A stretch of 64,000 nt of DNA from positions 288,001 to 352,000 of the IMG/VR virus record IMGVR_UViG_3300014208_000023. The stretch is one strand, 5' to 3'. The stretch is from a virus. Its lineage: Duplodnaviria; Caudoviricetes. Position 1 is the first letter of the stretch; each line of letters opens with the position of its first letter. A model generated the notes under the pieces. That model was given only the letters and a program-made list of their open reading frames with translations, had not been told where the DNA came from and searched no databases. Position numbers and translations under genes: made by a program. This document shows positions 7,955-45,591 of this stretch, piece by piece.

Positions 7955-8875
7955 TTAGTTTGCTCTGTTTTCAACAAACCATTTGTAAGTTTTAGCTATT
8001 CCGTCTTCTAGAGACGTTTCTGCCTTAAGCCCAATTGATTTTAGTTTAGAAACGTCCAACAGTTTTCTTGGTGTTCCGTCAGGCTTGCTGCTATTATATG
8101 TGACTGGCCCTTCGTAACCGACAACTTTCTTTATCAAAATCGCCAAATCGTTAATGGTCATATCCTCACCGACACCAACATTAATGAGATCCGGTATGTC
8201 GTCCATAAACAATGTTTCTTTTACTATATTGGCCAGATCTTCACAATACATAAATTCTCTTCTAGCTTTTCCAGTTCCCCATAATTCTACGGACTCTGAA
8301 CCATTTACTTTAGCTTCGTGAATTTTTCGCAGTAAAGCCGGCAACACATGAGAATCTTCCAGATCAAAACTATCACCGGGCCCATACAAATTGGTGGGCA
8401 TTAATGAGTAGCCGGGAAAATTATATTGCCTACAATATGCTCTTATCATTTGCACTCCGGCAATTTTGGCAACAGCATAAGCGTCATTAGTAGATTCTAA
8501 TGGTCCGGTTAGAAGATATTCTTCTTTAATTGGTTGAGGGGCAAATTTTGGATAGATACACGACGATCCAAGAAAACAAAACTTTTTGCAACCATACTTT
8601 CTAGCTGCCTCTATTGTATTTACGGTTATTTGTAAATTCTGCCTAATAAAATCTCCCTGATAAGTAAAGTTTGCCATAATACCGCCAACCTTTGCGGCGG
8701 CCATTACAACATAATCAGGATGGTATTCTTTGAAAAAATCCTCTACTTGAGCTTGATTGGTTAAATCAAGCTCTGATCTAGATTTAGTAATGATATTATC
8801 ATAGTTAGATTTTTTAAGACTGCGCACTACGGCAGATCCTACCATCCCATTATGGCCCGCTACGTAAATGCTCAT
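7955..8875 (-). CDS. fcl: GDP-L-fucose synthase
   Basis: GHNGMVGS, AAAKVGGI, LGSSCIYP, YAVAK, PTNLYGP, SHVLP, REFMY, PDGTPRK. Confidence 0.95.
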   Translation of the reverse strand: MSIYVAGHNGMVGSAVVRSLKKSNYDNIITKSRSELDLTNQAQVEDFFKEYHPDYVVMAAAKVGGIMANFTYQGDFIRQNLQITVNTIEAARKYGCKKFCFLGSSCIYPKFAPQPIKEEYLLTGPLESTNDAYAVAKIAGVQMIRAYCRQYNFPGYSLMPTNLYGPGDSFDLEDSHVLPALLRKIHEAKVNGSESVELWGTGKARREFMYCEDLANIVKETLFMDDIPDLINVGVGEDMTINDLAILIKKVVGYEGPVTYNSSKPDGTPRKLLDVSKLKSIGLKAETSLEDGIAKTYKWFVENRAN

Positions 8876-9873
8876 TTTTTATTTAGTAAATAAAGTTCTT
8901 TTTCAGCCAATTCCATATCATATTGAATCATCTCATCTACCAGCATTTGGAATGAAAACTTTGGTTCCCAACCCAGCTCTTTTCGTATTTTGGAAGAATC
9001 TCCGCATAGAGCATCCACTTCGCTTGCTCTAAAGTATTTAGGATCTATTTCAACATAGTTTTTGTAATCAAGCCCCAGATGAGAAAATACCATCTCAACA
9101 AACTCTAGAACTGAATGCATCTCTCCGCTAGAGATAACGTAGTCTCCAGGATTTTCAGCAGTTATGATTTTAAACATTCCGGCAGCTACGTCCGATGCAT
9201 GAGACCAATCTCTTTTGGCGTCTAGATTTCCTAGATATAGTTTTTCTTGTAGCCCTAGTTTTATACGAGTTGCCGCTCTAGTTATTTTTCTGGTAACGAA
9301 GGTTTCTCCTCGTCTAGCGCCTTCGTGATTGAAACTGATGGCGTTACTGGCATGCATTCCATAAGCTTCTCTGTAGTTTATGGTGGCGTAGAATCCGGCC
9401 ACCTTTGCCACTCCATACGGAGACCTTGGGTGAAATGGCGTTGTTTCACTCTGTGGTGGATTTTCAGATCCAAACATTTCGCTGCTTGAGGCCGTAAGGA
9501 ATCTGGTTTTGGGACTACATTTCCTAACTGCCTCCAAAACTCTCATTACTCCGGTTCCTGTAACGTCCATGGTATAAACTGGAATATCAAAACTTACCTT
9601 AACGTGAGATTGCGCTCCCATGTTAAATAACAAATCTGGCTTAATATCTCCTATCCAGCTAGATAGTGATGCATAATCAGATAGGTCTCCATATGTTAAT
9701 TCTAATTGCGCATCCGAATGCGGATCTTGATAAAGATGGTCTATTCTCTCCGTATTTAGAGAGCTACTTCGACGCTTTAATCCATGAACCTTATAGCCTT
9801 CTTTTAGAAGAAGTTCGCATAGATATGATCCCGTCTGTCCAGTAACGCCAGTAATGCAAGCAGTTTTAGTCAT
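8872..9873 (-). CDS. gmd: GDP-mannose 4,6-dehydratase
   Basis: ITGVTGQTGSYL, AQSHVKVSF, ASSSEMFG, PRSPYGVAK, FNHE, ETFVTRKI, LGNLDAKRDW. Confidence 0.97.
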   Translation of the reverse strand: MTKTACITGVTGQTGSYLCELLLKEGYKVHGLKRRSSSLNTERIDHLYQDPHSDAQLELTYGDLSDYASLSSWIGDIKPDLLFNMGAQSHVKVSFDIPVYTMDVTGTGVMRVLEAVRKCSPKTRFLTASSSEMFGSENPPQSETTPFHPRSPYGVAKVAGFYATINYREAYGMHASNAISFNHEGARRGETFVTRKITRAATRIKLGLQEKLYLGNLDAKRDWSHASDVAAGMFKIITAENPGDYVISSGEMHSVLEFVEMVFSHLGLDYKNYVEIDPKYFRASEVDALCGDSSKIRKELGWEPKFSFQMLVDEMIQYDMELAEKELYLLNKK

Positions 9874-9928: not shown

Positions 9929-10183
9929 TCATTTTTTACCATATATTTTGGTCGATCCCTGCCCATATAGTTTTTGTGCCTCTCCGGTTTTAACCATATG
10001 ATTTATCTGCTCGTCTATCTGCTGAATAAGATCATTTCTCTGCTGGTTTGCTATGTTAGTAAGGCGAGTGGCATCTGCAATCTCCTTATCTGTAGCGGAT
10101 TTATTCCTCTTAATATCTTCGGCCATCCATATTCTTATATTGGTTACTGATAAGCTGTCAATTAGATTTCCAATAGTAGTCAT
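9929..10183 (-). CDS. DUF4254-like small helical protein
   Basis: TIGNLIDSLSVTNIRIWMAED...NQQRNDLIQQID pattern. Confidence 0.6.
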   Translation of the reverse strand: MTTIGNLIDSLSVTNIRIWMAEDIKRNKSATDKEIADATRLTNIANQQRNDLIQQIDEQINHMVKTGEAQKLYGQGSTKIYGKK

Positions 10184-10977
10184 TGTTTCCTAGTTTTGAA
10201 TTGTTCGATGTCTTCTTGCGTATCATTTAGAAGGTCCCAATACGTATATTCCCAATTTACGGATGGGGTAATCCATTTTGTATTAGTTGGCGGAGTGCTT
10301 GTATCTTCATTAACAAGATCGTGATATTCTAAACCGTTCATTTCGTATAAATCTTGCACGAAGTTTCTAACATTAAACGCCATTCCGGCCCCAACCATAC
10401 AATCTTCGATCTGCCCTATGCTTTTGCTTACGACAAATTTTGTATGAACCATATCTCGCTCGAAGTCCAAATTACCAACACTAATTTTTTCATTATTTAC
10501 GATCGATCTAAATATCTTTCCAAATAGGAAATACTTGCTTCTATACGTTGAATTGAAATAGAATGGGTGAATAAATATAACTTTTTTGTATAGATCGTTT
10601 AATTCACGAAGTTCTTTAATTTTATTTAAGAGAAGTAGTTTAGAAATCGCGTATTCATTTTTAAGATCGAAATTTGGTTCCGTATCTAAAGATATTACTC
10701 CCTCCCCAAACCCTCTCCACAATTCACAACTGGTGTAGCACACTATCTTTTTGGAGTTTTGCAGAAGGGCTTTGATTATCTTTAGTGTGTTCAGATAATT
10801 CGGAGTGATATAGTCAATGTTCTTTTCGTATATTCTCTGCTCGGCAAAAGTAATATATACAGAGTCCCATTGATTTTGTTTTAAATAATTGAAGTCAATA
10901 TTTCTGGAGGAAATTTTGACATAATCATCCGGAAAATACTGGGCTAACTGGGACGAACTTCCTATCACTAAATCCAC
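10180..10977 (-). CDS. Atypical NAD-dependent epimerase/dehydratase (SDR)
   Basis: Degenerate GSSSQLA glycine motif, YAISK (YxxxK), RDMVH. Confidence 0.7.
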   Translation of the reverse strand: MDLVIGSSSQLAQYFPDDYVKISSRNIDFNYLKQNQWDSVYITFAEQRIYEKNIDYITPNYLNTLKIIKALLQNSKKIVCYTSCELWRGFGEGVISLDTEPNFDLKNEYAISKLLLLNKIKELRELNDLYKKVIFIHPFYFNSTYRSKYFLFGKIFRSIVNNEKISVGNLDFERDMVHTKFVVSKSIGQIEDCMVGAGMAFNVRNFVQDLYEMNGLEYHDLVNEDTSTPPTNTKWITPSVNWEYTYWDLLNDTQEDIEQFKTRKQ

Positions 10978-12194
10978 TAGACACCTATAACTTCAAATTT
11001 CGGGCAGGGGACTATAAAACGACCACCTGCTAACAAATAATCCTGTTCTCTGCTGACAAACTCATTTATAAAATGCCAAGGCAATACTAGTAAATAATCT
11101 GGCTTTGCTCTACGCATCTCATCTTCAGAGTAAATCGGTATATTTGTTCCTACCGTTTTAAGCCCAAACTTATAGGGACTACGCTCGGCAATTCCATCGA
11201 TTAACGTGTGGTCAAGTCCAAAATATTGCAATAGGGTATTTCCTTTGGTGGAGGCGCCATAACCCCAAATAGTCTTGCCTTTGGCCTTCTCTTCTTTTAT
11301 AAAGAATACGGTTTTTTCTTTCAAAGATTCTATATCATTGTAAAACGATATCCAGGTTTCAGCTTGGTCTAATTTCAAAGTTTTTTCATATGCCAATAGA
11401 GAATCAACTCTCATATTGCAGATGTCTCTATATGGTTGAGAAGAAAATGTTTTTTCATCACCAGATTGTTTCATCGTATAAATTCTAAATGACCCGCCAT
11501 TAACATCATTAAGCTGGCAGTCCATAACTTTAAACCCATTTTTTTCTAGCAAAGCTTTTAAATTAAAAAGAGAATAGTAATAAATGTGTTCGTGACAGAT
11601 ATTATCAAAAGCCATTTGTTTAATCATTAATGGCGTATAGCTTAATTGAAGAACCCAAATGCCATTATCATCCAACACTTCTCCGATATCACGAATAAAT
11701 GAGTCTGGGTCTTCCAGGTCATAAAACATAGCTATAGAGGTTATTACTTTCGCTTTTAATCCGCCAAACTTACATTTTTTAAATGTATTAGCGCTAAAGT
11801 AATCTTGAATAATTAAATTGGAATGTTTTTGTGACTCGGCTTTATATGAATCATCTACCGGATCTATTCCAACTCTGATTAGGTCAGATGGTAACCACGA
11901 AAGAAGCGTTCCGTCATTACAAGCAATATCTATCCAAAGATCATTTTCTTTAAGTTTTTTTATTTTAAGAATGGAATCAACTATATCTTTTAATTCTTGT
12001 TTCATAGAAGAATTAATGCCGCTACGATACCAATATGTTCCATACATAGTATTTAACGGAGCTGATTTGGAAAGCTTAACGTTTCCATCATCAGTTAGCA
12101 ATAGTTTCATTTCAACCTTATCGCCCCGTGGTGGCTGGTTGTCTTTTATAAAGTCAGAAACATATAGGTCGCCTAAAGTAAAAAGCTCTTTCAT
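10977..12194 (-). CDS. NDP-sugar C-methyltransferase
   Basis: YWYRSG, DIACNDGTLL, SIAMFYDL, DNICHEH, GYGASTKGNTLL, LPWHF. Confidence 0.92.
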   Translation of the reverse strand: MKELFTLGDLYVSDFIKDNQPPRGDKVEMKLLLTDDGNVKLSKSAPLNTMYGTYWYRSGINSSMKQELKDIVDSILKIKKLKENDLWIDIACNDGTLLSWLPSDLIRVGIDPVDDSYKAESQKHSNLIIQDYFSANTFKKCKFGGLKAKVITSIAMFYDLEDPDSFIRDIGEVLDDNGIWVLQLSYTPLMIKQMAFDNICHEHIYYYSLFNLKALLEKNGFKVMDCQLNDVNGGSFRIYTMKQSGDEKTFSSQPYRDICNMRVDSLLAYEKTLKLDQAETWISFYNDIESLKEKTVFFIKEEKAKGKTIWGYGASTKGNTLLQYFGLDHTLIDGIAERSPYKFGLKTVGTNIPIYSEDEMRRAKPDYLLVLPWHFINEFVSREQDYLLAGGRFIVPCPKFEVIGV

Positions 12195-13807: not shown

Positions 13808-14623
13808 ATGAAAAAAATAATAAGCTACTCTTTGTATAATTCTATTCCAAAGAACACGATAAATGCCATCATCAACTGTATGTTGGTGCCTAAAATATAC
13901 CCAGGCTGGATAGCAAGATTTTATATAGATGATACTGTGCCAAAGCCTATTGTGGATATTTTACGAACTTTTGACTATGTTGAAATAGTTGAAATGCCAA
14001 GGGGAACTGGAAGTGAGCGTATGTGCTGGCGGTTCCTCCCAGCGGCAGACTATAATGCAATAATGATATCACGTGATTGCGATAGCTGGATTAGTTCAAG
14101 AGAAAAAGTTTGTGTCGATGCTTGGTTAGCTAGTGATAAAAACTTTAGTATTATTTATGATCACTGTTATCACACGGACTCAAAAATTAAAATAATGGGT
14201 GGCGTGTGGGGCTCAAGAAATGGTATCATTCCAAAGATGGCCGAAGAAATTGATAAGTTTGTAAATGCTGGCCAAACTTATGACCAGGGCCTATTATCAT
14301 CCGTAATCTATCCAAACATTACGCATACCGTCATGATTCATTATGGTGACCCTCAATATAATAATAAGGGGGAACGAATTCATCGAGGCAGCGAACTTGG
14401 AGGAGTTCCAATTCCGCCCTATGAAGAAAACGACGAGCCAATTCCTGGCCTTTCATTTAGACGCGTTAATAAGTTGAATGAATTTTTCTGCGCTCACTGC
14501 AAAAAACATCATGACGTTTTCATTGGTGGCATTATGGAACATATTCCAGAAGATGCTATGCAGGTTGTCAGAAATTACGCTAAAGAAAAGGGAATTTCAG
14601 TAGAAAATTGTCCTGGCTTCTAA
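13808..14623 (+). CDS. Putative glycosyltransferase-like protein
   Basis: IISYSLY, YPGW, WRFL, SRDCDS (DxD), MGGVWG, DQ motifs. Confidence 0.6.
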   Translation: MKKIISYSLYNSIPKNTINAIINCMLVPKIYPGWIARFYIDDTVPKPIVDILRTFDYVEIVEMPRGTGSERMCWRFLPAADYNAIMISRDCDSWISSREKVCVDAWLASDKNFSIIYDHCYHTDSKIKIMGGVWGSRNGIIPKMAEEIDKFVNAGQTYDQGLLSSVIYPNITHTVMIHYGDPQYNNKGERIHRGSELGGVPIPPYEENDEPIPGLSFRRVNKLNEFFCAHCKKHHDVFIGGIMEHIPEDAMQVVRNYAKEKGISVENCPGF

Positions 14624-15393
14624 TAAAAATACTTCAAAAACAAATCCATTCTTAATTTATGCCCCTCAGCAAATGAGGGGAAATAAGAATTCCATTGAGA
14701 ACCAGCCATATAATGGTAGAACCCATTAGCAACCCAGCCGGCACTTAATCCATATTTGCCACATATAAATAAATCATCTCTAAAATACTGTAAGAATGGG
14801 GTATCTTTGGCTGTGCTAATATAATTTAATATTTGGCTATTTTCCAGAAACTTAACTTTTTCTGGATTACTTTCAATAAAGTATCTGGTTTTCCCACCAC
14901 AATCTAGTCCTGGCTCTAATCCAAAATCTATATTTTTAGGATTTTGTAGAAGAGCCATATTAATGATCGTAAATGCTGGGTAGAAATAAATAATTCCTTT
15001 ACCATCCAATATTTTATATTCAGTTGTGCTTGCCGCAATATTGTTTCCTATAATATTTGAAACATTAATATCTTCTATTGGAAATACATCAGTATGAAGC
15101 AAAATAATAATTTCACAATTATTTTTAACGGCATAGTCTTGTACTGCCCAATTTAAAGTGGCAGCATATCCTTCTGAAGGATTTTGAATCTTATGAATAC
15201 TTTGCGGAACTCTCACGCAATTAATTTTATTATAGGAGGTCACCAGATTTATGGCCGCTTCCATCTCCGGATCCATTGCATCATTAAATAATACAAAATC
15301 AAAATCTTCTTTCATATACTTTTGAAATTGTCTATACATTATATCAATTGGAAACTTATCATTGACAGCAAAAGAGAAAACGGATATTTTCAT
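14620..15393 (-). CDS. Putative GT-A-like protein
   Basis: LLHTDVFP, LDCGG, YHYMAGSQW; glycan cluster context. Confidence 0.5.
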   Translation of the reverse strand: MKISVFSFAVNDKFPIDIMYRQFQKYMKEDFDFVLFNDAMDPEMEAAINLVTSYNKINCVRVPQSIHKIQNPSEGYAATLNWAVQDYAVKNNCEIIILLHTDVFPIEDINVSNIIGNNIAASTTEYKILDGKGIIYFYPAFTIINMALLQNPKNIDFGLEPGLDCGGKTRYFIESNPEKVKFLENSQILNYISTAKDTPFLQYFRDDLFICGKYGLSAGWVANGFYHYMAGSQWNSYFPSFAEGHKLRMDLFLKYFY

Positions 15394-16289
15394 ACAAGCT
15401 CCATAGAATTAATAGTTTCTTGAAGACCGTCCTTCAAAGAAGTAAATGATATATTTGGCATTATTGTTTTTAAGTATTGATTGCTTACGGTTTTCTTTAA
15501 ATTTCCATCAGGCTTACTGGTATCAAATTTAATTTGATGTTTGAAATTGACTATTTCGCCAATCGTAGTTGATAGGTCTGCAATACTAATTTCTTCGTCA
15601 CCGCAACAAATTACTGGTTTTGTGTCGAAATAAACATATACCAATTCTTTTATTATTGAGGCTAAATCTTTAGAATAAATAAACTGCCTTAATGGCTTGC
15701 CGGCACCACTCATTATGACATCAGAATTATTTTTCTCTGCATCTTTAAACTTATTAATTAAGTTTGGTATTAACCTACCAGAAGACATATTGTCATTTGG
15801 GCCATAGATATTTGACGGTATTATTCCAAAGTATTTTCTGCCATATTGAGTGTTATAATTTTGGCACTGTAGCTCAAGCATTCTTTTTGAAAACGCGTAT
15901 CCGGCAAAAGCTCCGGTTAAATTGCCTTCAAAAATCATAGACTCGTCCATAGGAAATTTTGATGGAACTTCTGGAAACATATTGACTGAAAGGCAGCACA
16001 TTACATTTTGAATATTAGATATATTGGCTGCCTCTAATACGTTTTCATTTATTCTAACATTTGTTGAGAACGAAGAAACTCTATCTATATTGTAGAAGCC
16101 AGGAACATATGATGCCAAATGAACAATATAATCTGGCCGCATCTCATTTATAAAACCAATAGTCTGCGATCTTTCCGTTAAGTCACAATCTTTTCTATTG
16201 ATGAATATCCAATTATTTTCACCTGAGCACATAGACTTTAGCGCGCTTCCTACGCAACCATCACTTCCAGTAACTAAAATACGTTTCAT
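15390..16289 (-). CDS. GDP-fucose synthase-like SDR paralogue (probable reductase)
   Basis: VTGSDGCVG, HLAS, YAFSK, PSNIYGP, LRQFIYSKDLA, KPDG; epimerase Cys and His positions read N and R. Confidence 0.85.
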   Translation of the reverse strand: MKRILVTGSDGCVGSALKSMCSGENNWIFINRKDCDLTERSQTIGFINEMRPDYIVHLASYVPGFYNIDRVSSFSTNVRINENVLEAANISNIQNVMCCLSVNMFPEVPSKFPMDESMIFEGNLTGAFAGYAFSKRMLELQCQNYNTQYGRKYFGIIPSNIYGPNDNMSSGRLIPNLINKFKDAEKNNSDVIMSGAGKPLRQFIYSKDLASIIKELVYVYFDTKPVICCGDEEISIADLSTTIGEIVNFKHQIKFDTSKPDGNLKKTVSNQYLKTIMPNISFTSLKDGLQETINSMELV

Positions 16290-17488
16290 GGCTTGTAGCT
16301 CAACAATATATCAACCAGATCATCCACTAGATCGGCCGACATTAAATTGCTTGGAAGACCTATAAAACACCCTCTATAGTGGCATTTCTCGGCCCCTTTA
16401 AAATCAGCCGGATTTAATTCAGGATAAAGATCCTTGATGACTGGCTGCCTAACCATATTGCCGGTTATTATTGGCCTATTTTCGACGCCTTTGCTTGAAA
16501 GATAATCTAAATAATCTGATAGCTTAATGTTTTCATCCAAAAACATAGTTACTCCAAACCACGCAATATCGCCATTATCTATTTCTTTTGGAAATGAAAT
16601 AAAGCTACCTCTTGGATCTGCTTCTATTTTTGACTTTATATTGCTATAGTTTATTTTCCTATTTTCGTTTTTAGATTTTAATTTATATAGCTGATGCACG
16701 CCCATCGCCGCCTGTATCTCCATGGGCCTGACGTTATATCCTAGATTTACGAAAGTAAATCTTGGGTCTATGTCCGGAAACTGTTCCTGAATTTCATTCT
16801 TATTCTTTAGGCTCCTAGACCAACCATGGGCACGCAGACACTTTATGAGCTCATAATCCTCATCGTCATCACAAACTACCATTCCGCCTTCCATAGTAGT
16901 TATGTGATGTGAATAATAAAATGAATATGTGGCAAAGGTTCCAAAAGTCCCCAGGTATTTGCCATCATATTTGGATCCTAGGCTTTCACACGTATCCTCT
17001 ATTAAAATAAGATTGTGGCGCTTAACTATATCCATTAATTTTCTCATGTCGGTGGAGTTTCCTAGGACATGAACCAACATAATGGCTTTTGTTTTTTCAG
17101 TTATTTTCTTTTCTAGATCCTCTAAATCTATATTTAGAGTTTCAGGATCTACATCGACAAACACTGGAACTAGATTGCACTGAACAATTGGAAAAATACT
17201 TGTAGACCAACACAAGGCCGGAACAATAACTTCATCGCCCGGCACAAGCTTATTGGCTCTTTTGTAGTTAGTTAAAGCGGCTACGGCTAACAAATTGGCG
17301 GACGAACCAGAATTAACCATAACTGCATGTTTAGCACCAACATATTCTGCGAACATATTTTCGAATTGGCTTACCTGCTCACCCATAGTGAAGTTTCCGG
17401 TAAGCAATACTTTAATCATATTTAAAATATCATCAGTATCGTGAGCGTTCTGTCCCAATGGGAACTTCATAATTAACGGTGATTTCAT
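16286..17488 (-). CDS. colD: PLP/PMP-dependent GDP-4-keto-6-deoxymannose 3-dehydratase, ColD-like (DegT/DnrJ family)
   Basis: NSGSSANL, WSTS, EDTCES, SFYYSHHITTMEGG (His in place of Schiff-base Lys), RAHGWSR, GYNVRP; no E1-type Cys cluster. Confidence 0.8.
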   Translation of the reverse strand: MKSPLIMKFPLGQNAHDTDDILNMIKVLLTGNFTMGEQVSQFENMFAEYVGAKHAVMVNSGSSANLLAVAALTNYKRANKLVPGDEVIVPALCWSTSIFPIVQCNLVPVFVDVDPETLNIDLEDLEKKITEKTKAIMLVHVLGNSTDMRKLMDIVKRHNLILIEDTCESLGSKYDGKYLGTFGTFATYSFYYSHHITTMEGGMVVCDDDEDYELIKCLRAHGWSRSLKNKNEIQEQFPDIDPRFTFVNLGYNVRPMEIQAAMGVHQLYKLKSKNENRKINYSNIKSKIEADPRGSFISFPKEIDNGDIAWFGVTMFLDENIKLSDYLDYLSSKGVENRPIITGNMVRQPVIKDLYPELNPADFKGAEKCHYRGCFIGLPSNLMSADLVDDLVDILLSYKP

Positions 17489-18552
17489 AGTTGGCTCTTA
17501 AGGCTGGTAAGAATTTCTTGCCAGTTATTATAAACTGAAGATCTTCTCAAGATATTGTGTTGGGACATATTATAGCTAATTTCGCTAGTATTTACGGTAT
17601 TTAATAAGTGAGATAGGTGAGATGGTGAATCAAAATATTGAATATATTTCATATTTCCTTCGTCGTAAAAATCACAGGTATCTATCCATTTATTTAAAAC
17701 CTCTGGGTTTCGAAGACTATTTGGATTATTTATATCTTCTGGCTCTTGCGCCTTACCTACTCTATAAAAAGTAAGGTCAGCAAATGCTTTGTTTTGATGA
17801 AACAATTCTTTTAAATAGGATTTAGATGGGAAAAATAATGGAACGTTAGCCGTATATTGCTCGAACGTAGACATTGTTCCATTGTGATATGGAATATGAA
17901 TTATTCCTTTATAACTATATAGATCTGCCCAGCTATATTTCCAGTTGCCGTTTCTTATTGCGCCAAGACTGACACACGAATTTCCAGGAACAGATATCTC
18001 TGATCGATCATGTATAACGAACTGATTTTTTGTTCCAGTATATTTGGCATTTGTATATTCGCATAAGTTTGGAATATGCATGCCAGTAATTCCAGTCATA
18101 TATTTAGTGTAATATTGGTCTCCTTTATTATTGCAAACATAATAAAGTTTTCCAGATGCAGCTCTTTCTTTTAGAAAGATATTTAATCTATCTCTAATTG
18201 CTAGATTGAAAGTATTGGGATGGTCATATCTAATACAATTAACAACTATAATTGGTTTATTAAATTTTTCATATAGAAGAGCGAATTCAGTAGGATAGCA
18301 CGCAATGAAGCCATCATATTTGCTTAATTCTTCTTTATTTGCCTCATAGAACTTATCACAAACTTCTTGCGTGCATACTCCAGAACAAGTTAATTGCGTT
18401 CCATCACTTAATTTGATATTTGGTTTAGGCTTATTTAAAACCCAGTGATGACCGGATAGCGACCAATCATCAACTTCATGGCCCAAATTTTTGAAAATAT
18501 GAGCCACATCTGCTATGACTGAAACGTGCTGGTCTATGTTGAAAAATTTCAT
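17485..18552 (-). CDS. Putative glycosyltransferase-like protein
   Basis: MSTFEQYTANVPLFFP resembles GT-B nucleotide-binding segment; cluster context. Confidence 0.5.
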   Translation of the reverse strand: MKFFNIDQHVSVIADVAHIFKNLGHEVDDWSLSGHHWVLNKPKPNIKLSDGTQLTCSGVCTQEVCDKFYEANKEELSKYDGFIACYPTEFALLYEKFNKPIIVVNCIRYDHPNTFNLAIRDRLNIFLKERAASGKLYYVCNNKGDQYYTKYMTGITGMHIPNLCEYTNAKYTGTKNQFVIHDRSEISVPGNSCVSLGAIRNGNWKYSWADLYSYKGIIHIPYHNGTMSTFEQYTANVPLFFPSKSYLKELFHQNKAFADLTFYRVGKAQEPEDINNPNSLRNPEVLNKWIDTCDFYDEGNMKYIQYFDSPSHLSHLLNTVNTSEISYNMSQHNILRRSSVYNNWQEILTSLKSQL

Positions 18553-42644: not shown

Positions 42645-43742
42645 TTATCGGAGATACTGTTCTATTAGCTCTATTGAGAGGCCGTCTATTTTTTTGATGT
42701 CTGGGCAATAAGGTAGAAAATCGCAGGTTTTATAGAGATCATTCAATTCCCTATCTTCCCTTTCTGCCCATTCTATTAAATAATCAACTTCCCAAAGACC
42801 AGAACGAATTTCTAGAAGTTCTTCTCGGTCAGCTATTCGTTTAACACGAACCTCTCCGGTTGTTAAAATCTCACGACACATGCGTAACAAGCGAACTAAA
42901 TGATATGCGTGCTTGCAGTCGTATCCAAATTTGGCCTCAATTGCTGCCCTTTCTGGATTTCTTTCTAGCTTCCACTTAAGATACTGCTCCCATTCTCGTT
43001 TTTTACCTAGATACTCCCGTTCTCTTTGGAGAAGATGAATAAAGTTCTCGTCTAACCCAGAACGTCTTGCGCTAGATAACCAACGATCGTCTGACGTAAT
43101 CTTTGCGTCAGCCATCATTTCCGCCATTACATTGCGGATACCTATTTTTTCAGCCTCTTGAAGGTCTTGAAGCCAATCAAAATTGATACGATCCATATCC
43201 TTCTGGATCATGGCCATCGTAGCTTCTAACTGATTCTTCTCAATCAGAGGTTTTTCTTCTAGCCCAAACTCTTTACGAGATGGTGGGCAGAGCATTGGAT
43301 TGCGGAGATATTTTCGATGGTTTTTTATGCGGTTAAGCTGACTAACCGCATATCCGGCAAAGCTCCACCTTACTCGTTTAGAAAGGAAAATATTCCTGTT
43401 TTCAAGGATTTTTTCTCCTGCCTTGGAGACGAAAATATGGTCAGAAGGATCTGTGAAAAGAACCTCTATGCAGTTAGGGTTGCAGTTGGATAGCAGGCTA
43501 AAAAACTTACGTAGCTCGTAAATTACCGTATCTGGCTCATTGAACTCTTGCTGCTCGAACTTTTTAGTAACGCCGAAATAGTAGTCTTTCGTTGGAATGG
43601 CTACTCCCTTATAGTCGTCGTCACTGCCTTCGATGTTTGTTCCATAAGCTTTAGATCCGTGGCGGGTAAGGTAGATTACGCCATCAGATATGGGAGATTT
43701 GATCTCCTTAAGCTTATCGAAAATTATATGATTAGTCATCAT
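42645..43742 (-). CDS. Pol-beta-superfamily nucleotidyltransferase (RlaP/YcgL-like)
   Basis: GSKAYGTNIEGSDDDYKG, NPNCIEVLF, FAGYA, YDCKHAYHLVRLL. Confidence 0.85.
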   Translation of the reverse strand: MMTNHIIFDKLKEIKSPISDGVIYLTRHGSKAYGTNIEGSDDDYKGVAIPTKDYYFGVTKKFEQQEFNEPDTVIYELRKFFSLLSNCNPNCIEVLFTDPSDHIFVSKAGEKILENRNIFLSKRVRWSFAGYAVSQLNRIKNHRKYLRNPMLCPPSRKEFGLEEKPLIEKNQLEATMAMIQKDMDRINFDWLQDLQEAEKIGIRNVMAEMMADAKITSDDRWLSSARRSGLDENFIHLLQREREYLGKKREWEQYLKWKLERNPERAAIEAKFGYDCKHAYHLVRLLRMCREILTTGEVRVKRIADREELLEIRSGLWEVDYLIEWAEREDRELNDLYKTCDFLPYCPDIKKIDGLSIELIEQYLR

Positions 43743-44421: not shown

Positions 44422-45591
44422 TCAATTAGTCAAAAATTCAAACGGATCCATAAGCCGTGTATTAGGCTCTTTTGGCGCCAGGCTTATAACATCTTCGGGC
44501 TTTACTCCGGTTGAAATATATTCAATAGGGGTTTTAGTGAAAGACTCGACATACTTCAAAAAGGATCTTGTTTGATTGGCGTCTTTAGAATCTTTCCAGC
44601 AAGGCAAATCAAGATAGGTCGGATTTACATTATTGAAGTCGCTTGGAGAGAATACCTCTTTGCCATATGAGACGCAAGTTTTGATGCTTCTCTGGCCTTC
44701 AGGAATATCCATCTTACATACAATTAGGTGTGTGATTCCGCCTTTTTGAATTCCGTATTTGAGCATTGGCAAGTCGAGATAGCCAATTCTACGAGGCTTT
44801 CCGGTTGTTGCTCCAATCTCTCCGCCAAGCTCTCTCCACTGAATAGCATCTTCCGATGACATTTCAGTTGGCAAAGGGCCTGGGCTTCCAGCCTTGGTTA
44901 CATACGGCTTCATCATTCCATAAACCCTATCCAGCTTAACGAAATTAAAGCCAGAGGCAGCTATGCCTGAAACGGTGCAGTCGCCAGCGGTAACATACGG
45001 GTAAAGCCCAGCATTAATGTCGAGCATTACTCCTTGGCTGCCTTCAAAGAGGAGTCTTGATTTCTCAAATTCTTCTTTCATAGCCAAGACCGTAGTAAAT
45101 GTAACGCCAACCGCCTTTAGCTTTTTGATAACTTCAGCATCATCGTTCATGTAGTTATACACGCGACTACCATTGCGGCTGTATTTACTAACCGCTGCTG
45201 GCCCAACACCTTTGCCAGTAGATCCTACTCCTGTGTTGTGGGCCTTATCAAGATCAATGTGGCCAGAGCTAATAGTAAATGCGTCCATATCCACGTATAT
45301 GGACTCGCCTACTCCTGGAAAATCTTTCTCAAATAAGAGGATTTCGGCCAATAGATTTTCTAGGTTAATATACATTCCCGATGCAAGATAGGATTTTACC
45401 GTCTTACATCTATAATCTGCCGATGGAAGATAATGATGGGTGTATTTCTTGCCATCACGATAGATGACGTGACCACAATTTTCCGAGCCAGCATGACGAA
45501 TAACCCAATCATATTTGGGAGAGAAATGATGGGTGAAATGACCCTTACCATTGTCTCCTAAAAGACAATCTAAAACCGCTATATTTTTCAT
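44422..45591 (-). CDS. purA: Adenylosuccinate synthetase-like protein, divergent
   Basis: GDNGKG, NCGH, GSTGKGVGP, EGSQG, YPYVT, GATTGKPRRIG, CKMD, STG. Confidence 0.88.
   Translation of the reverse strand: MKNIAVLDCLLGDNGKGHFTHHFSPKYDWVIRHAGSENCGHVIYRDGKKYTHHYLPSADYRCKTVKSYLASGMYINLENLLAEILLFEKDFPGVGESIYVDMDAFTISSGHIDLDKAHNTGVGSTGKGVGPAAVSKYSRNGSRVYNYMNDDAEVIKKLKAVGVTFTTVLAMKEEFEKSRLLFEGSQGVMLDINAGLYPYVTAGDCTVSGIAASGFNFVKLDRVYGMMKPYVTKAGSPGPLPTEMSSEDAIQWRELGGEIGATTGKPRRIGYLDLPMLKYGIQKGGITHLIVCKMDIPEGQRSIKTCVSYGKEVFSPSDFNNVNPTYLDLPCWKDSKDANQTRSFLKYVESFTKTPIEYISTGVKPEDVISLAPKEPNTRLMDPFEFLTN

What the first reader, a model, noticed from the sequence alone, without database searches (positions are those of the whole stretch)
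15390..16289. Second Fcl-like enzyme keeps the reductase triad but lacks both epimerase residues
Seen: the first copy has SSCIYP and SHVLP, whereas this copy has LSVNMFP and GRLIP with Ser and YxxxK retained. Known: Cys109 and His179 of E. coli Fcl perform 3,5-epimerisation. Inference: a reductase-only enzyme which, sitting directly after the ColD-like gene, could give a D-configured 6-deoxy or 3,6-dideoxy GDP-sugar rather than L-fucose or L-colitose, possibly an unusual product.
Basis: partly seen in the sequence, partly recalled or inferred. Interest (0 to 1): 0.6.

Follow-up and report, generated by a model that had tools for sequence, protein, structure and literature searches.

The report
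Phage sugar reductase lacking epimerase residues
A 428-kb phage carries, fused in reading order to a ColD sugar dehydratase, a relative of GDP-fucose synthase that keeps its reductase machinery but has replaced both epimerase residues. The same change is fixed in about a hundred related phage genes, so the phages probably make a D-configured 3,6-dideoxy sugar rather than L-colitose. This has not been tested at the bench.

Summary
ORF 15390-16289(-) is a 299-aa Fcl/GMER-like SDR. It keeps the NADPH motif and the S101/Y131/K135 triad, but has Asn103 and Arg172 where Fcl has the Cys/His epimerisation dyad. The copy at 7955-8875(-) is canonical.

The change is not decay. About 99 metagenomic cluster representatives at 50-82% identity share it: Arg is invariant and Asn occurs in about 92%. 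They form one clade (SH-aLRT 100) nested among Cys/His enzymes of the eukaryote/giant-virus type, away from bacterial Fcl/ColC.

The gene overlaps a true ColD orthologue by ATGA. ColD lies beside or near it in all six relatives examined, and a natural ColD-Fcl-like fusion exists (P0246). By contrast, ColD-adjacent Fcl-like genes are Cys/His in 46 of 50 prokaryotic cases and in all 7 IMG/VR viral cases. No RmlC-type epimerase is found in the phage.

There is published precedent. The C. jejuni Fcl homologues DdahC (T/H) and MlghC (Y/R) are reductases only, and an H180R change shifts DdahC towards non-epimerised substrate. ColD-type dehydratase plus C4-reductases gave D-configured GDP-3,6-dideoxy-heptoses in vitro.

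Best reading (about 0.6): a C4-ketoreductase that makes a GDP-3,6-dideoxy-D-hexose, with the C4 configuration unknown. It is a new variant of a known kind. First-reader notes of this scan record the same pairing in another genome.

The parts
15390..16289 (-). Fcl/GMER-like extended SDR (P0001, 299 aa) with an Asn103/Arg172 dyad; predicted NADPH-dependent C4-ketoreductase without epimerase activity
   Evidence: Pfam Epimerase E 5e-39. NCBIfam Fcl 167 bits against a cut-off of 500. Human GFS 211 bits and E. coli GMER 124 bits. AlphaFold model pLDDT 94.6, TM 0.93-0.95 to human GFS.
15981..15989 (-). Codons S101-V102-N103: the triad Ser is kept and Asn sits at the position of the Fcl Cys109 base
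   Evidence: Asn is found in 92% of 98 clade members, against Cys in 100% of the nearest Cys/His group.
15885..15899 (-). Codons Y131-A-F-S-K135: the SDR catalytic Tyr and Lys
   Evidence: Invariant in alignments A1 and A3.
15774..15776 (-). Codon R172 at the position of the Fcl His179 acid
   Evidence: Arg is in 100% of clade members and His in 100% of both Cys/His comparison groups. It aligns to the His of human GFS.
16286..17488 (-). ColD orthologue (P0002, 400 aa): PLP/PMP-dependent GDP-4-keto-6-deoxy-D-mannose 3-dehydratase, translationally coupled to the reductase
   Evidence: E. coli ColD 2gms scores 288 bits, E 9e-85, with SFYYSHHITTMEGG carrying His at the Schiff-base Lys position. 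ATGA overlap.
8872..9873 (-). GDP-mannose 4,6-dehydratase (Gmd), which supplies the ColD substrate
   Evidence: TIGR01472 451.5 bits, above the cut-off of 415.
7955..8875 (-). Canonical bacterial-type Fcl with the Cys/His dyad (SSCIYP, SHVLP)
   Evidence: NF047922 435 bits. It groups with bacterial Fcl/ColC-like sequences.
17485..18552 (-). Conserved 355-aa neighbour upstream of ColD (P0003); candidate glycosyltransferase
   Evidence: A protein of the same size sits at the same position in relatives. No Pfam or PHROG hit. Language-model neighbours are named glycosyltransferase; this is a lead only.
14620..15393 (-). Conserved 257-aa neighbour downstream (P0004), ATGA-coupled; candidate GT2-like transferase
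   Evidence: Conserved at the same position in relatives. ATGA overlap. Language-model neighbours include GT2 clusters; this is a lead only.

Best explanation
P0001 is an NADPH-dependent C4-ketoreductase descended from a eukaryote/giant-virus-type GDP-fucose synthase, and it has given up the Cys/His epimerisation dyad. It works as the last step of a three-enzyme phage pathway. [quoted passage not shown] ColD removes the 3-OH to give GDP-4-keto-3,6-dideoxy-D-mannose. P0001 then reduces C4 without inverting C5. The product would be a D-configured GDP-3,6-dideoxyhexose, either arabino (tyvelose-type) or lyxo. The two conserved flanking GT-like proteins probably transfer it.

Shown here: the residues, their conservation, the clade, the coupling to ColD and the absence of an RmlC-type epimerase. 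Inferred: the loss of epimerase activity, the substrate, the product and the acceptor.
For: The triad S101/Y131/K135 and the glycines G8/G11/G14 are conserved, and the fold is confidently Fcl-like. The Asn/Arg replacement is fixed in about 99 cluster representatives. The position of the Cys also tolerates Thr, His, Gly or Ser, which fits a residue that is no longer catalytic. Positions 103 and 172 are among only ten that discriminate the clade, and positions 63, 65, 104 and 173 on the list lie in or next to the conserved HLAxxVGG segment and the two dyad motifs. The clade is monophyletic (SH-aLRT 100) and nested among Cys/His enzymes. ColD is next to or near the gene in 6 of 6 relatives, mostly with a 4-bp overlap. 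Of 46 family members on contigs of at least 10 kb, 36 share their exact longest-contig length with a close ColD homologue. P0246 is a natural fusion of a ColD domain and an Fcl-like domain with a Gly/His dyad. Elsewhere, ColD-adjacent Fcl-like genes keep Cys/His: 46 of 50 prokaryotic and 7 of 7 IMG/VR viral. No PF00908 epimerase is found in the 428-kb genome, while controls ring in 11 of 14 genomes. No epimerase or cupin domain is found in the island. [quoted passage not shown] In PMC10440746, a ColD-type dehydratase plus C4-reductases, without an epimerase, gave GDP-3,6-dideoxy-D-arabino- and D-lyxo-heptose.
Against: No activity has been measured. Arg, Tyr131 or another residue might still support a slow C5 epimerisation. 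The sister sequence P0247 has Ser/Lys, and Cys/Lys dyads are functional epimerase dyads in GME (PMC7949155). An epimerase of unrecognised fold, or one from the host, could act between ColD and the reductase. Adjacency does not prove that the ColD product is the substrate. The C4 stereochemistry cannot be read from sequence, because homologues reduce to either face.
Confidence: 0.6

Rival explanations
1. P0001 is still a ColC-like bifunctional C5-epimerase/C4-reductase that uses non-canonical acid/base residues. The pathway would then make GDP-L-colitose, which the nearby GT11 could transfer.
For: It sits where a ColC would be expected, directly coupled to ColD. A GT11 gene lies in the island. 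Only one centre (C5) needs inverting in a 3-deoxy substrate. The sister P0247 has Ser/Lys, which resembles the functional Cys/Lys dyad of GME (PMC7949155).
Against: Asn cannot act as a base. That position also tolerates Thr, Gly, His and Ser within the clade. Presumed ColC enzymes next to ColD keep Cys/His in 46 of 50 prokaryotic and 7 of 7 viral loci. No new Cys, His, Asp or Glu is gained among the clade-specific positions. Restoring Cys in DdahC did not create epimerase activity, which shows that a precise dyad is needed.
Confidence: 0.15
2. P0001 reduces the Gmd product directly and makes GDP-D-rhamnose or GDP-6-deoxy-D-talose. ColD would serve another branch.
For: [quoted passage not shown] Gmd is present.
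Against: ColD partnership is conserved in every context examined, with stop/start overlap, and a ColD-Fcl-like fusion exists. Under this reading ColD would be left without a reductase, unless the canonical Fcl serves it.
Confidence: 0.12
3. P0001 is a pure reductase, but an unrecognised phage or host epimerase acts first, as in the C. jejuni HS:5 pathway. The product would then be an L-configured 3,6-dideoxyhexose.
For: The natural C. jejuni pathways use a separate cupin epimerase between the C3-dehydratase and the C4-reductase. Several island ORFs have no assignable domain.
Against: No PF00908 match is found in the whole 428-kb genome. No cupin or epimerase family appears in the gene tables of six related loci.
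Confidence: 0.1
4. The gene is a decaying, non-functional Fcl copy.
For: It scores far below the Fcl equivalog cut-off (167 against 500 bits).
Against: The frame is open and the model is high-confidence. About 48 columns are invariant across 29 clade members that are only 49-82% identical to it. The triad and NADPH site are intact, and synteny is conserved.
Confidence: 0.02

Closest known systems
C. jejuni GDP-heptose C4-reductases MlghC (Cj1428) and DdahC (PDB 7anc, 7m13, 7cxt, 7anh, 8ewu)
   Same: They are Fcl/GFS homologues with an intact S-Y-K triad and a replaced Cys/His dyad: Y108/R180 in MlghC and T110/H180 in DdahC. They were shown to be reductases without epimerase activity. Arg at the His position is shared with MlghC (PMC7949155). 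They are structural neighbours of the P0001 model (TM 0.82-0.90).
   Different: They share only 21-24% identity with P0001, and their chains are 345-373 aa against 299 aa. PMC7949155 describes a more open pocket suited to heptoses. They work with a separate cupin epimerase, and none is found in the phage. P0001's dyad is Asn/Arg, and its origin lies independently within the eukaryote/virus-type GFS branch.
GDP-L-colitose synthase ColC of the bacterial ColD/ColC pathway
   Same: It is an Fcl-like SDR encoded next to ColD and acts on GDP-4-keto-3,6-dideoxy-D-mannose.
   Different: Bacterial ColD-adjacent homologues keep Cys/His and usually lie upstream of ColD. They form a separate bacterial clade. 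P0001 lies downstream of ColD, has Asn/Arg and belongs to another branch.
GDP-L-fucose synthase (human GFS/TSTA3; E. coli Fcl/GMER)
   Same: These are the best sequence and structure matches: 211 bits to human GFS, about 36% identity, TM 0.93-0.95. They share the fold, the NADPH site and the triad.
   Different: Both epimerisation residues are replaced, and P0001 scores below the NCBIfam equivalog cut-off.
RMD-type GDP-4-keto-6-deoxy-D-mannose reductase (PDB 2pk3)
   Same: The proposed chemistry is the same: C4 reduction of a GDP-4-keto-D-sugar without epimerisation.
   Different: It is a distant, GMD-like lineage (E 9e-7, 31.9 bits; TM 0.80, 21% identity).

Membership tests
GDP-L-fucose synthase (Fcl/GMER/GFS) | Extended-SDR fold with an N-terminal GxxGxxG NADPH site | tested here: met
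   GSDGCVG at residues 8-14. Pfam Epimerase E 5e-39. Model pLDDT 94.6, TM 0.93-0.95 to 4bkp, 4bl5 and 4b8w.
GDP-L-fucose synthase (Fcl/GMER/GFS) | Ser-Tyr-Lys reductase triad | tested here: met
   S101, Y131 and K135 are invariant in A1 and A3.
GDP-L-fucose synthase (Fcl/GMER/GFS) | Cys/His acid-base dyad for 3,5-epimerisation (E. coli C109/H179) | tested here: not met
   N103 and R172 occupy the aligned positions.
GDP-L-fucose synthase (Fcl/GMER/GFS) | Score above the NCBIfam equivalog cut-off (NF047922, 500 bits) | tested here: not met
   167.5 bits.
GDP-L-colitose synthase (ColC) | Encoded with ColD | tested here: met
   ATGA overlap with a ColD orthologue, conserved in relatives.
GDP-L-colitose synthase (ColC) | Retains the epimerisation dyad, as ColD-adjacent homologues do | tested here: not met
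   Cys/His in 46 of 50 prokaryotic and 7 of 7 viral ColD-adjacent homologues, against Asn/Arg here.
GDP-L-colitose synthase (ColC) | Groups phylogenetically with bacterial ColD-adjacent Fcl-like enzymes | tested here: not met
   The two are separated by a branch with SH-aLRT 100. P0001 nests in the eukaryote/virus-type branch.
Fcl-like C4-reductases without epimerase activity (MlghC/DdahC type) | Fcl-like fold and triad with the Cys/His dyad replaced | tested here: met
   Asn/Arg here, against Y/R in MlghC and T/H in DdahC.
Fcl-like C4-reductases without epimerase activity (MlghC/DdahC type) | Measured reductase activity and absence of epimerase activity | not testable with these tools
   This needs an enzyme assay.
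Fcl-like C4-reductases without epimerase activity (MlghC/DdahC type) | Works downstream of a separate cupin C3/C5 epimerase on GDP-heptoses | tested here: not met
   No PF00908 match in the genome. A hexose pathway is implied by Gmd.

The most novel reading that the evidence does not exclude
A lineage of 250-480-kb phages makes a GDP-activated 3,6-dideoxy-D-hexose, either tyvelose-configured or the D-lyxo isomer. This would use a Gmd-ColD-reductase route with no epimerase. I found no report of such a nucleotide sugar from nature. The two conserved, unclassified GT-like neighbours would install it on a virion or host-surface glycan.
Probability: 0.45. Interest if true: 0.65.

Novelty: new variant of a known kind. 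Interest (0 to 1): 0.5.

Why it matters
If the prediction holds, it would add a third natural outcome to the GDP-mannose deoxysugar tree beside L-fucose and L-colitose. It would also give a GDP-linked route to a D-3,6-dideoxyhexose, a class otherwise made from CDP-glucose. It would show huge phages inventing their own sugar chemistry from a eukaryote/virus-type enzyme rather than copying a host O-antigen operon. The clade is a clean natural experiment on how a bifunctional epimerase/reductase is pared down to a reductase: Cys to Asn, His to Arg, plus a few clade-specific changes in or next to the conserved motifs. It could also supply a small, well-behaved enzyme for making rare GDP-sugars.

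Tried and rejected
- **Decayed copy:** rejected on conservation and the model.
- **Recent paralogue of the first Fcl:** rejected. The two share 34% identity and sit on different tree branches.
- **Giant-virus origin of the record:** the NCLDV capsid search was empty, but it was also empty in all controls, so it is uninformative. Terminase_6N was also not found. The phage nature rests on PHROG hits to replication genes and on the record's classification.
- **Getting E. coli ColD/ColC by DNA search of E. coli genomes:** no match.
- **First genome-contig scan with single ColD:** nothing found. The second scan, with an alignment, worked.
- **IMG/VR:** holds no close (>44% identity) member of the Asn/Arg clade other than the window's own record.
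- **The look-up of encoding contigs:** closed after six look-ups. The contexts of the Cys/His sister sequences (P0118, P0111, P0124), of P0246 and of P0247 could therefore not be read.
- **C. jejuni reductase sequences:** not obtainable by reference, so they are missing from the trees. Their dyads are taken from PMC7949155.
- **Literature search for GDP-tyvelose:** zero occurrences in the held library. This is weak evidence of absence.

Full report
**Setting.** The window is bases 288001-352000 of a 428,320-bp virus record with direct terminal repeats. Genes are short, mostly on one strand and often overlap at stop/start codons. Window ORFs match phage replication families, for example DNA helicase phrog_1967 at E 7e-86. 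The finding lies in a glycan island at about 6.8-22.5 kb. The island holds Gmd, a canonical Fcl, a sugar C-methyltransferase, a methyltransferase-GT2-GT6 fusion, a GT11, further methyltransferases and several unassigned ORFs.

- ORF 15390-16289(-) encodes 299 aa with GSDGCVG, LS101-V-N103-MFP, Y131-AFS-K135 and G-R172-LIP.
- The copy at 7955-8875(-) has SSCIYP and SHVLP and scores 435 bits on the NCBIfam Fcl model. The target scores 167 bits against a cut-off of 500.
- The best solved relative is human GDP-L-fucose synthase (211 bits; E. coli GMER 124 bits). In that alignment Asn lies over the catalytic Cys and Arg over the catalytic His.
- An AlphaFold model built on 48 sequences is confident (pLDDT 94.6, pTM 0.93). 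It superposes on human GFS at TM 0.93-0.95.
- The upstream gene 16286-17488(-) is a true ColD. It matches E. coli ColD at 288 bits (E 9e-85) and carries SFYYSHHITTMEGG, with His at the Schiff-base Lys position.
- The ColD stop and the reductase start overlap as ATGA. So do the reductase stop and the start of the next gene.

**The replacement is a clade signature, not decay.**
- A search of 5.8 billion proteins returned about 99 cluster representatives at 50-82% identity. Many sit on contigs of 250-480 kb.
- All of them carry LS-x-N-MF and G-R-L-[IV]-P. Arg is invariant. Asn is in about 92%, with Thr, His, Gly or Ser in the rest.
- Every homologue at 45% identity or less in that list is canonical Cys/His. 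All 79 IMG/VR relatives at 36-44% identity are Cys/His as well.
- Only ten positions separate 98 clade members from 100 of the nearest Cys/His sequences. They include 103 (C to N), 172 (H to R) and their neighbours 104 and 173, plus 63 and 65 in the conserved HLAxxVGG segment.
- No new Cys, His, Asp or Glu appears among these positions.

**Phylogeny.**
- In a 119-sequence tree the Asn/Arg sequences form one clade (SH-aLRT 100, stem 0.66). It is nested among Cys/His sequences from metagenomes and giant-virus MAGs.
- That whole branch is split, at support 100, from bacterial Fcl and from the bacterial ColD-adjacent (ColC-like) clade. The window's first Fcl groups with the bacterial side.
- The enzyme is therefore neither a duplicate of the phage's Fcl nor an orthologue of bacterial ColC.
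- A search of 1.84 billion representatives found the nearest outside relatives. P0247, with a Ser/Lys dyad, is sister to the clade at support 99. P0246 is a 718-aa natural fusion of a ColD domain (58% identity, His-type motif) and an Fcl-like domain (49% identity) with a Gly/His dyad.
- Among the 150 best representatives, 124 are Cys/His and 26 carry other pairs, including Y/R, T/N, A/H, N/H and C/R. Dyad loss has therefore happened repeatedly in this family.

**Coupling to ColD.**
- In six relatives at 50-72% identity, a His-type ColD lies directly upstream with a 4-bp overlap in four (for the 72% relative, two contigs were read). In the fifth it lies one gene away, and in the sixth about 5 kb away.
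- Conserved proteins of about 355 aa and 257 aa flank the pair.
- Of 46 family members whose longest contig is at least 10 kb, 36 share that exact contig length with a member of the close ColD family. This is an indirect sign that both genes lie on the same contig.
- The P0246 fusion adds Rosetta-stone support.
- By contrast, 46 of 50 Fcl-like genes found within the 6-kb flanks of ColD in 80 prokaryotic loci are Cys/His. Most of these lie directly upstream of ColD. Three Actinomycetota have Ala/His.
- All seven IMG/VR Fcl-like genes next to His-type ColD are Cys/His.

**No separate epimerase.** PF00908 (RmlC-type) finds nothing in the 428-kb genome at E 0.1 or better, while it rings in 11 of 14 control genomes. 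Pfam scans of the island ORFs show no cupin or epimerase domain. The gene tables of the related loci show none either. An epimerase of unknown fold, or a host enzyme, is not excluded.

**What is known.**
- PMC7949155 states that in GFS Cys109 is the base and His179 the acid for both epimerisations.
[quoted passage not shown] The C4 configuration of that product was not determined.
- PMC10440746 shows a ColD-type C3-dehydratase feeding Fcl-like C4-reductases. The natural routes include a C5-epimerase and give L-sugars. Omitting the epimerase gave GDP-3,6-dideoxy-D-arabino- and D-lyxo-heptose in vitro.
- The enzyme type and the chemistry are therefore precedented. A natural hexose pathway of this form is not, as far as I could find. 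'GDP-tyvelose' occurs nowhere in the held library.

**Mechanism proposed (inferred).** Gmd (TIGR01472 451 bits) makes GDP-4-keto-6-deoxy-D-mannose. ColD makes GDP-4-keto-3,6-dideoxy-D-mannose. P0001 then delivers hydride from NADPH to C4, with Tyr131 as the acid and no inversion at C5. The product would be GDP-3,6-dideoxy-D-arabino-hexose or the D-lyxo isomer. Which face is reduced cannot be told from sequence, because homologues differ. Arg172 probably positions the non-epimerised sugar, by analogy with DdahC H180R. The flanking GT-like proteins are the likely transferases, but only language-model leads support this.

**Verdict.** This is a new, phage-specific variant of a known kind of enzyme, with a plausible new product. 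Interest is moderate. First-reader notes of this scan record the same ColD plus Asn/Arg pairing in another genome.

Noticed in passing
window 44422-45591 (-) and 42645-43742 (-): A 389-aa ORF matches phrog_1211, annotated '2-aminooxy adenylosuccinate synthetase' (E 3e-63). This may be PurZ-like. It sits near a phrog_388 nucleotidyltransferase (E 1e-58). Together they hint at a modified-base (2-aminoadenine) DNA pathway in this phage.
   Followed up: no
P0246 (718 aa, metagenomic; no locus): A natural single-chain fusion of a His-type ColD domain (residues 15-392) and an Fcl-like SDR (407-628 and onward) with a Gly/His dyad.
   Followed up: partly
L118:1537-2544, L120:5044-5994, L127:5045-5983: Three Actinomycetota ColD-adjacent Fcl-like genes have Ala in place of the Cys base (GSAA-x-YP) but keep His. 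This may be another reductase-leaning or altered ColC variant in bacteria.
   Followed up: no
P0213-P0245 (ColD homologues of 530-560 aa): A group of ColD homologues at 55-59% identity carries an N-terminal extension of about 145 aa with no Pfam match. In P0216 the DegT domain spans 148-515. P0216 has the same longest-contig length (88,547 bp) as the Cys/His Fcl-like P0118.
   Followed up: no
window 15390-16289 (-): The public gene call for this ORF (P0006) is 280 aa and 94% of the frame. It presumably starts at Met20 and so lacks the NADPH-binding glycines. Homologues of 298 aa and the ATGA overlap support the 299-aa start at 16289.
   Followed up: yes
window 9929-12194 (-): A sugar C-methyltransferase (Methyltransf_14, E 1e-45), an atypical 265-aa SDR and a DUF4254 protein form a separate module. 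It is present in relative L086 but not seen within the 8-kb flanks of L084 or L087. It is therefore independent of the ColD-reductase pair.
   Followed up: partly
Fcl family at large: Of the 150 best 50%-identity representatives, 26 lack the Cys/His pair (A/H, C/R, N/H, Y/R, T/N, S/K, G/H and others) while keeping the triad. Reductase-only or altered derivatives of Fcl may be common and are mostly annotated as GDP-L-fucose synthase.
   Followed up: partly
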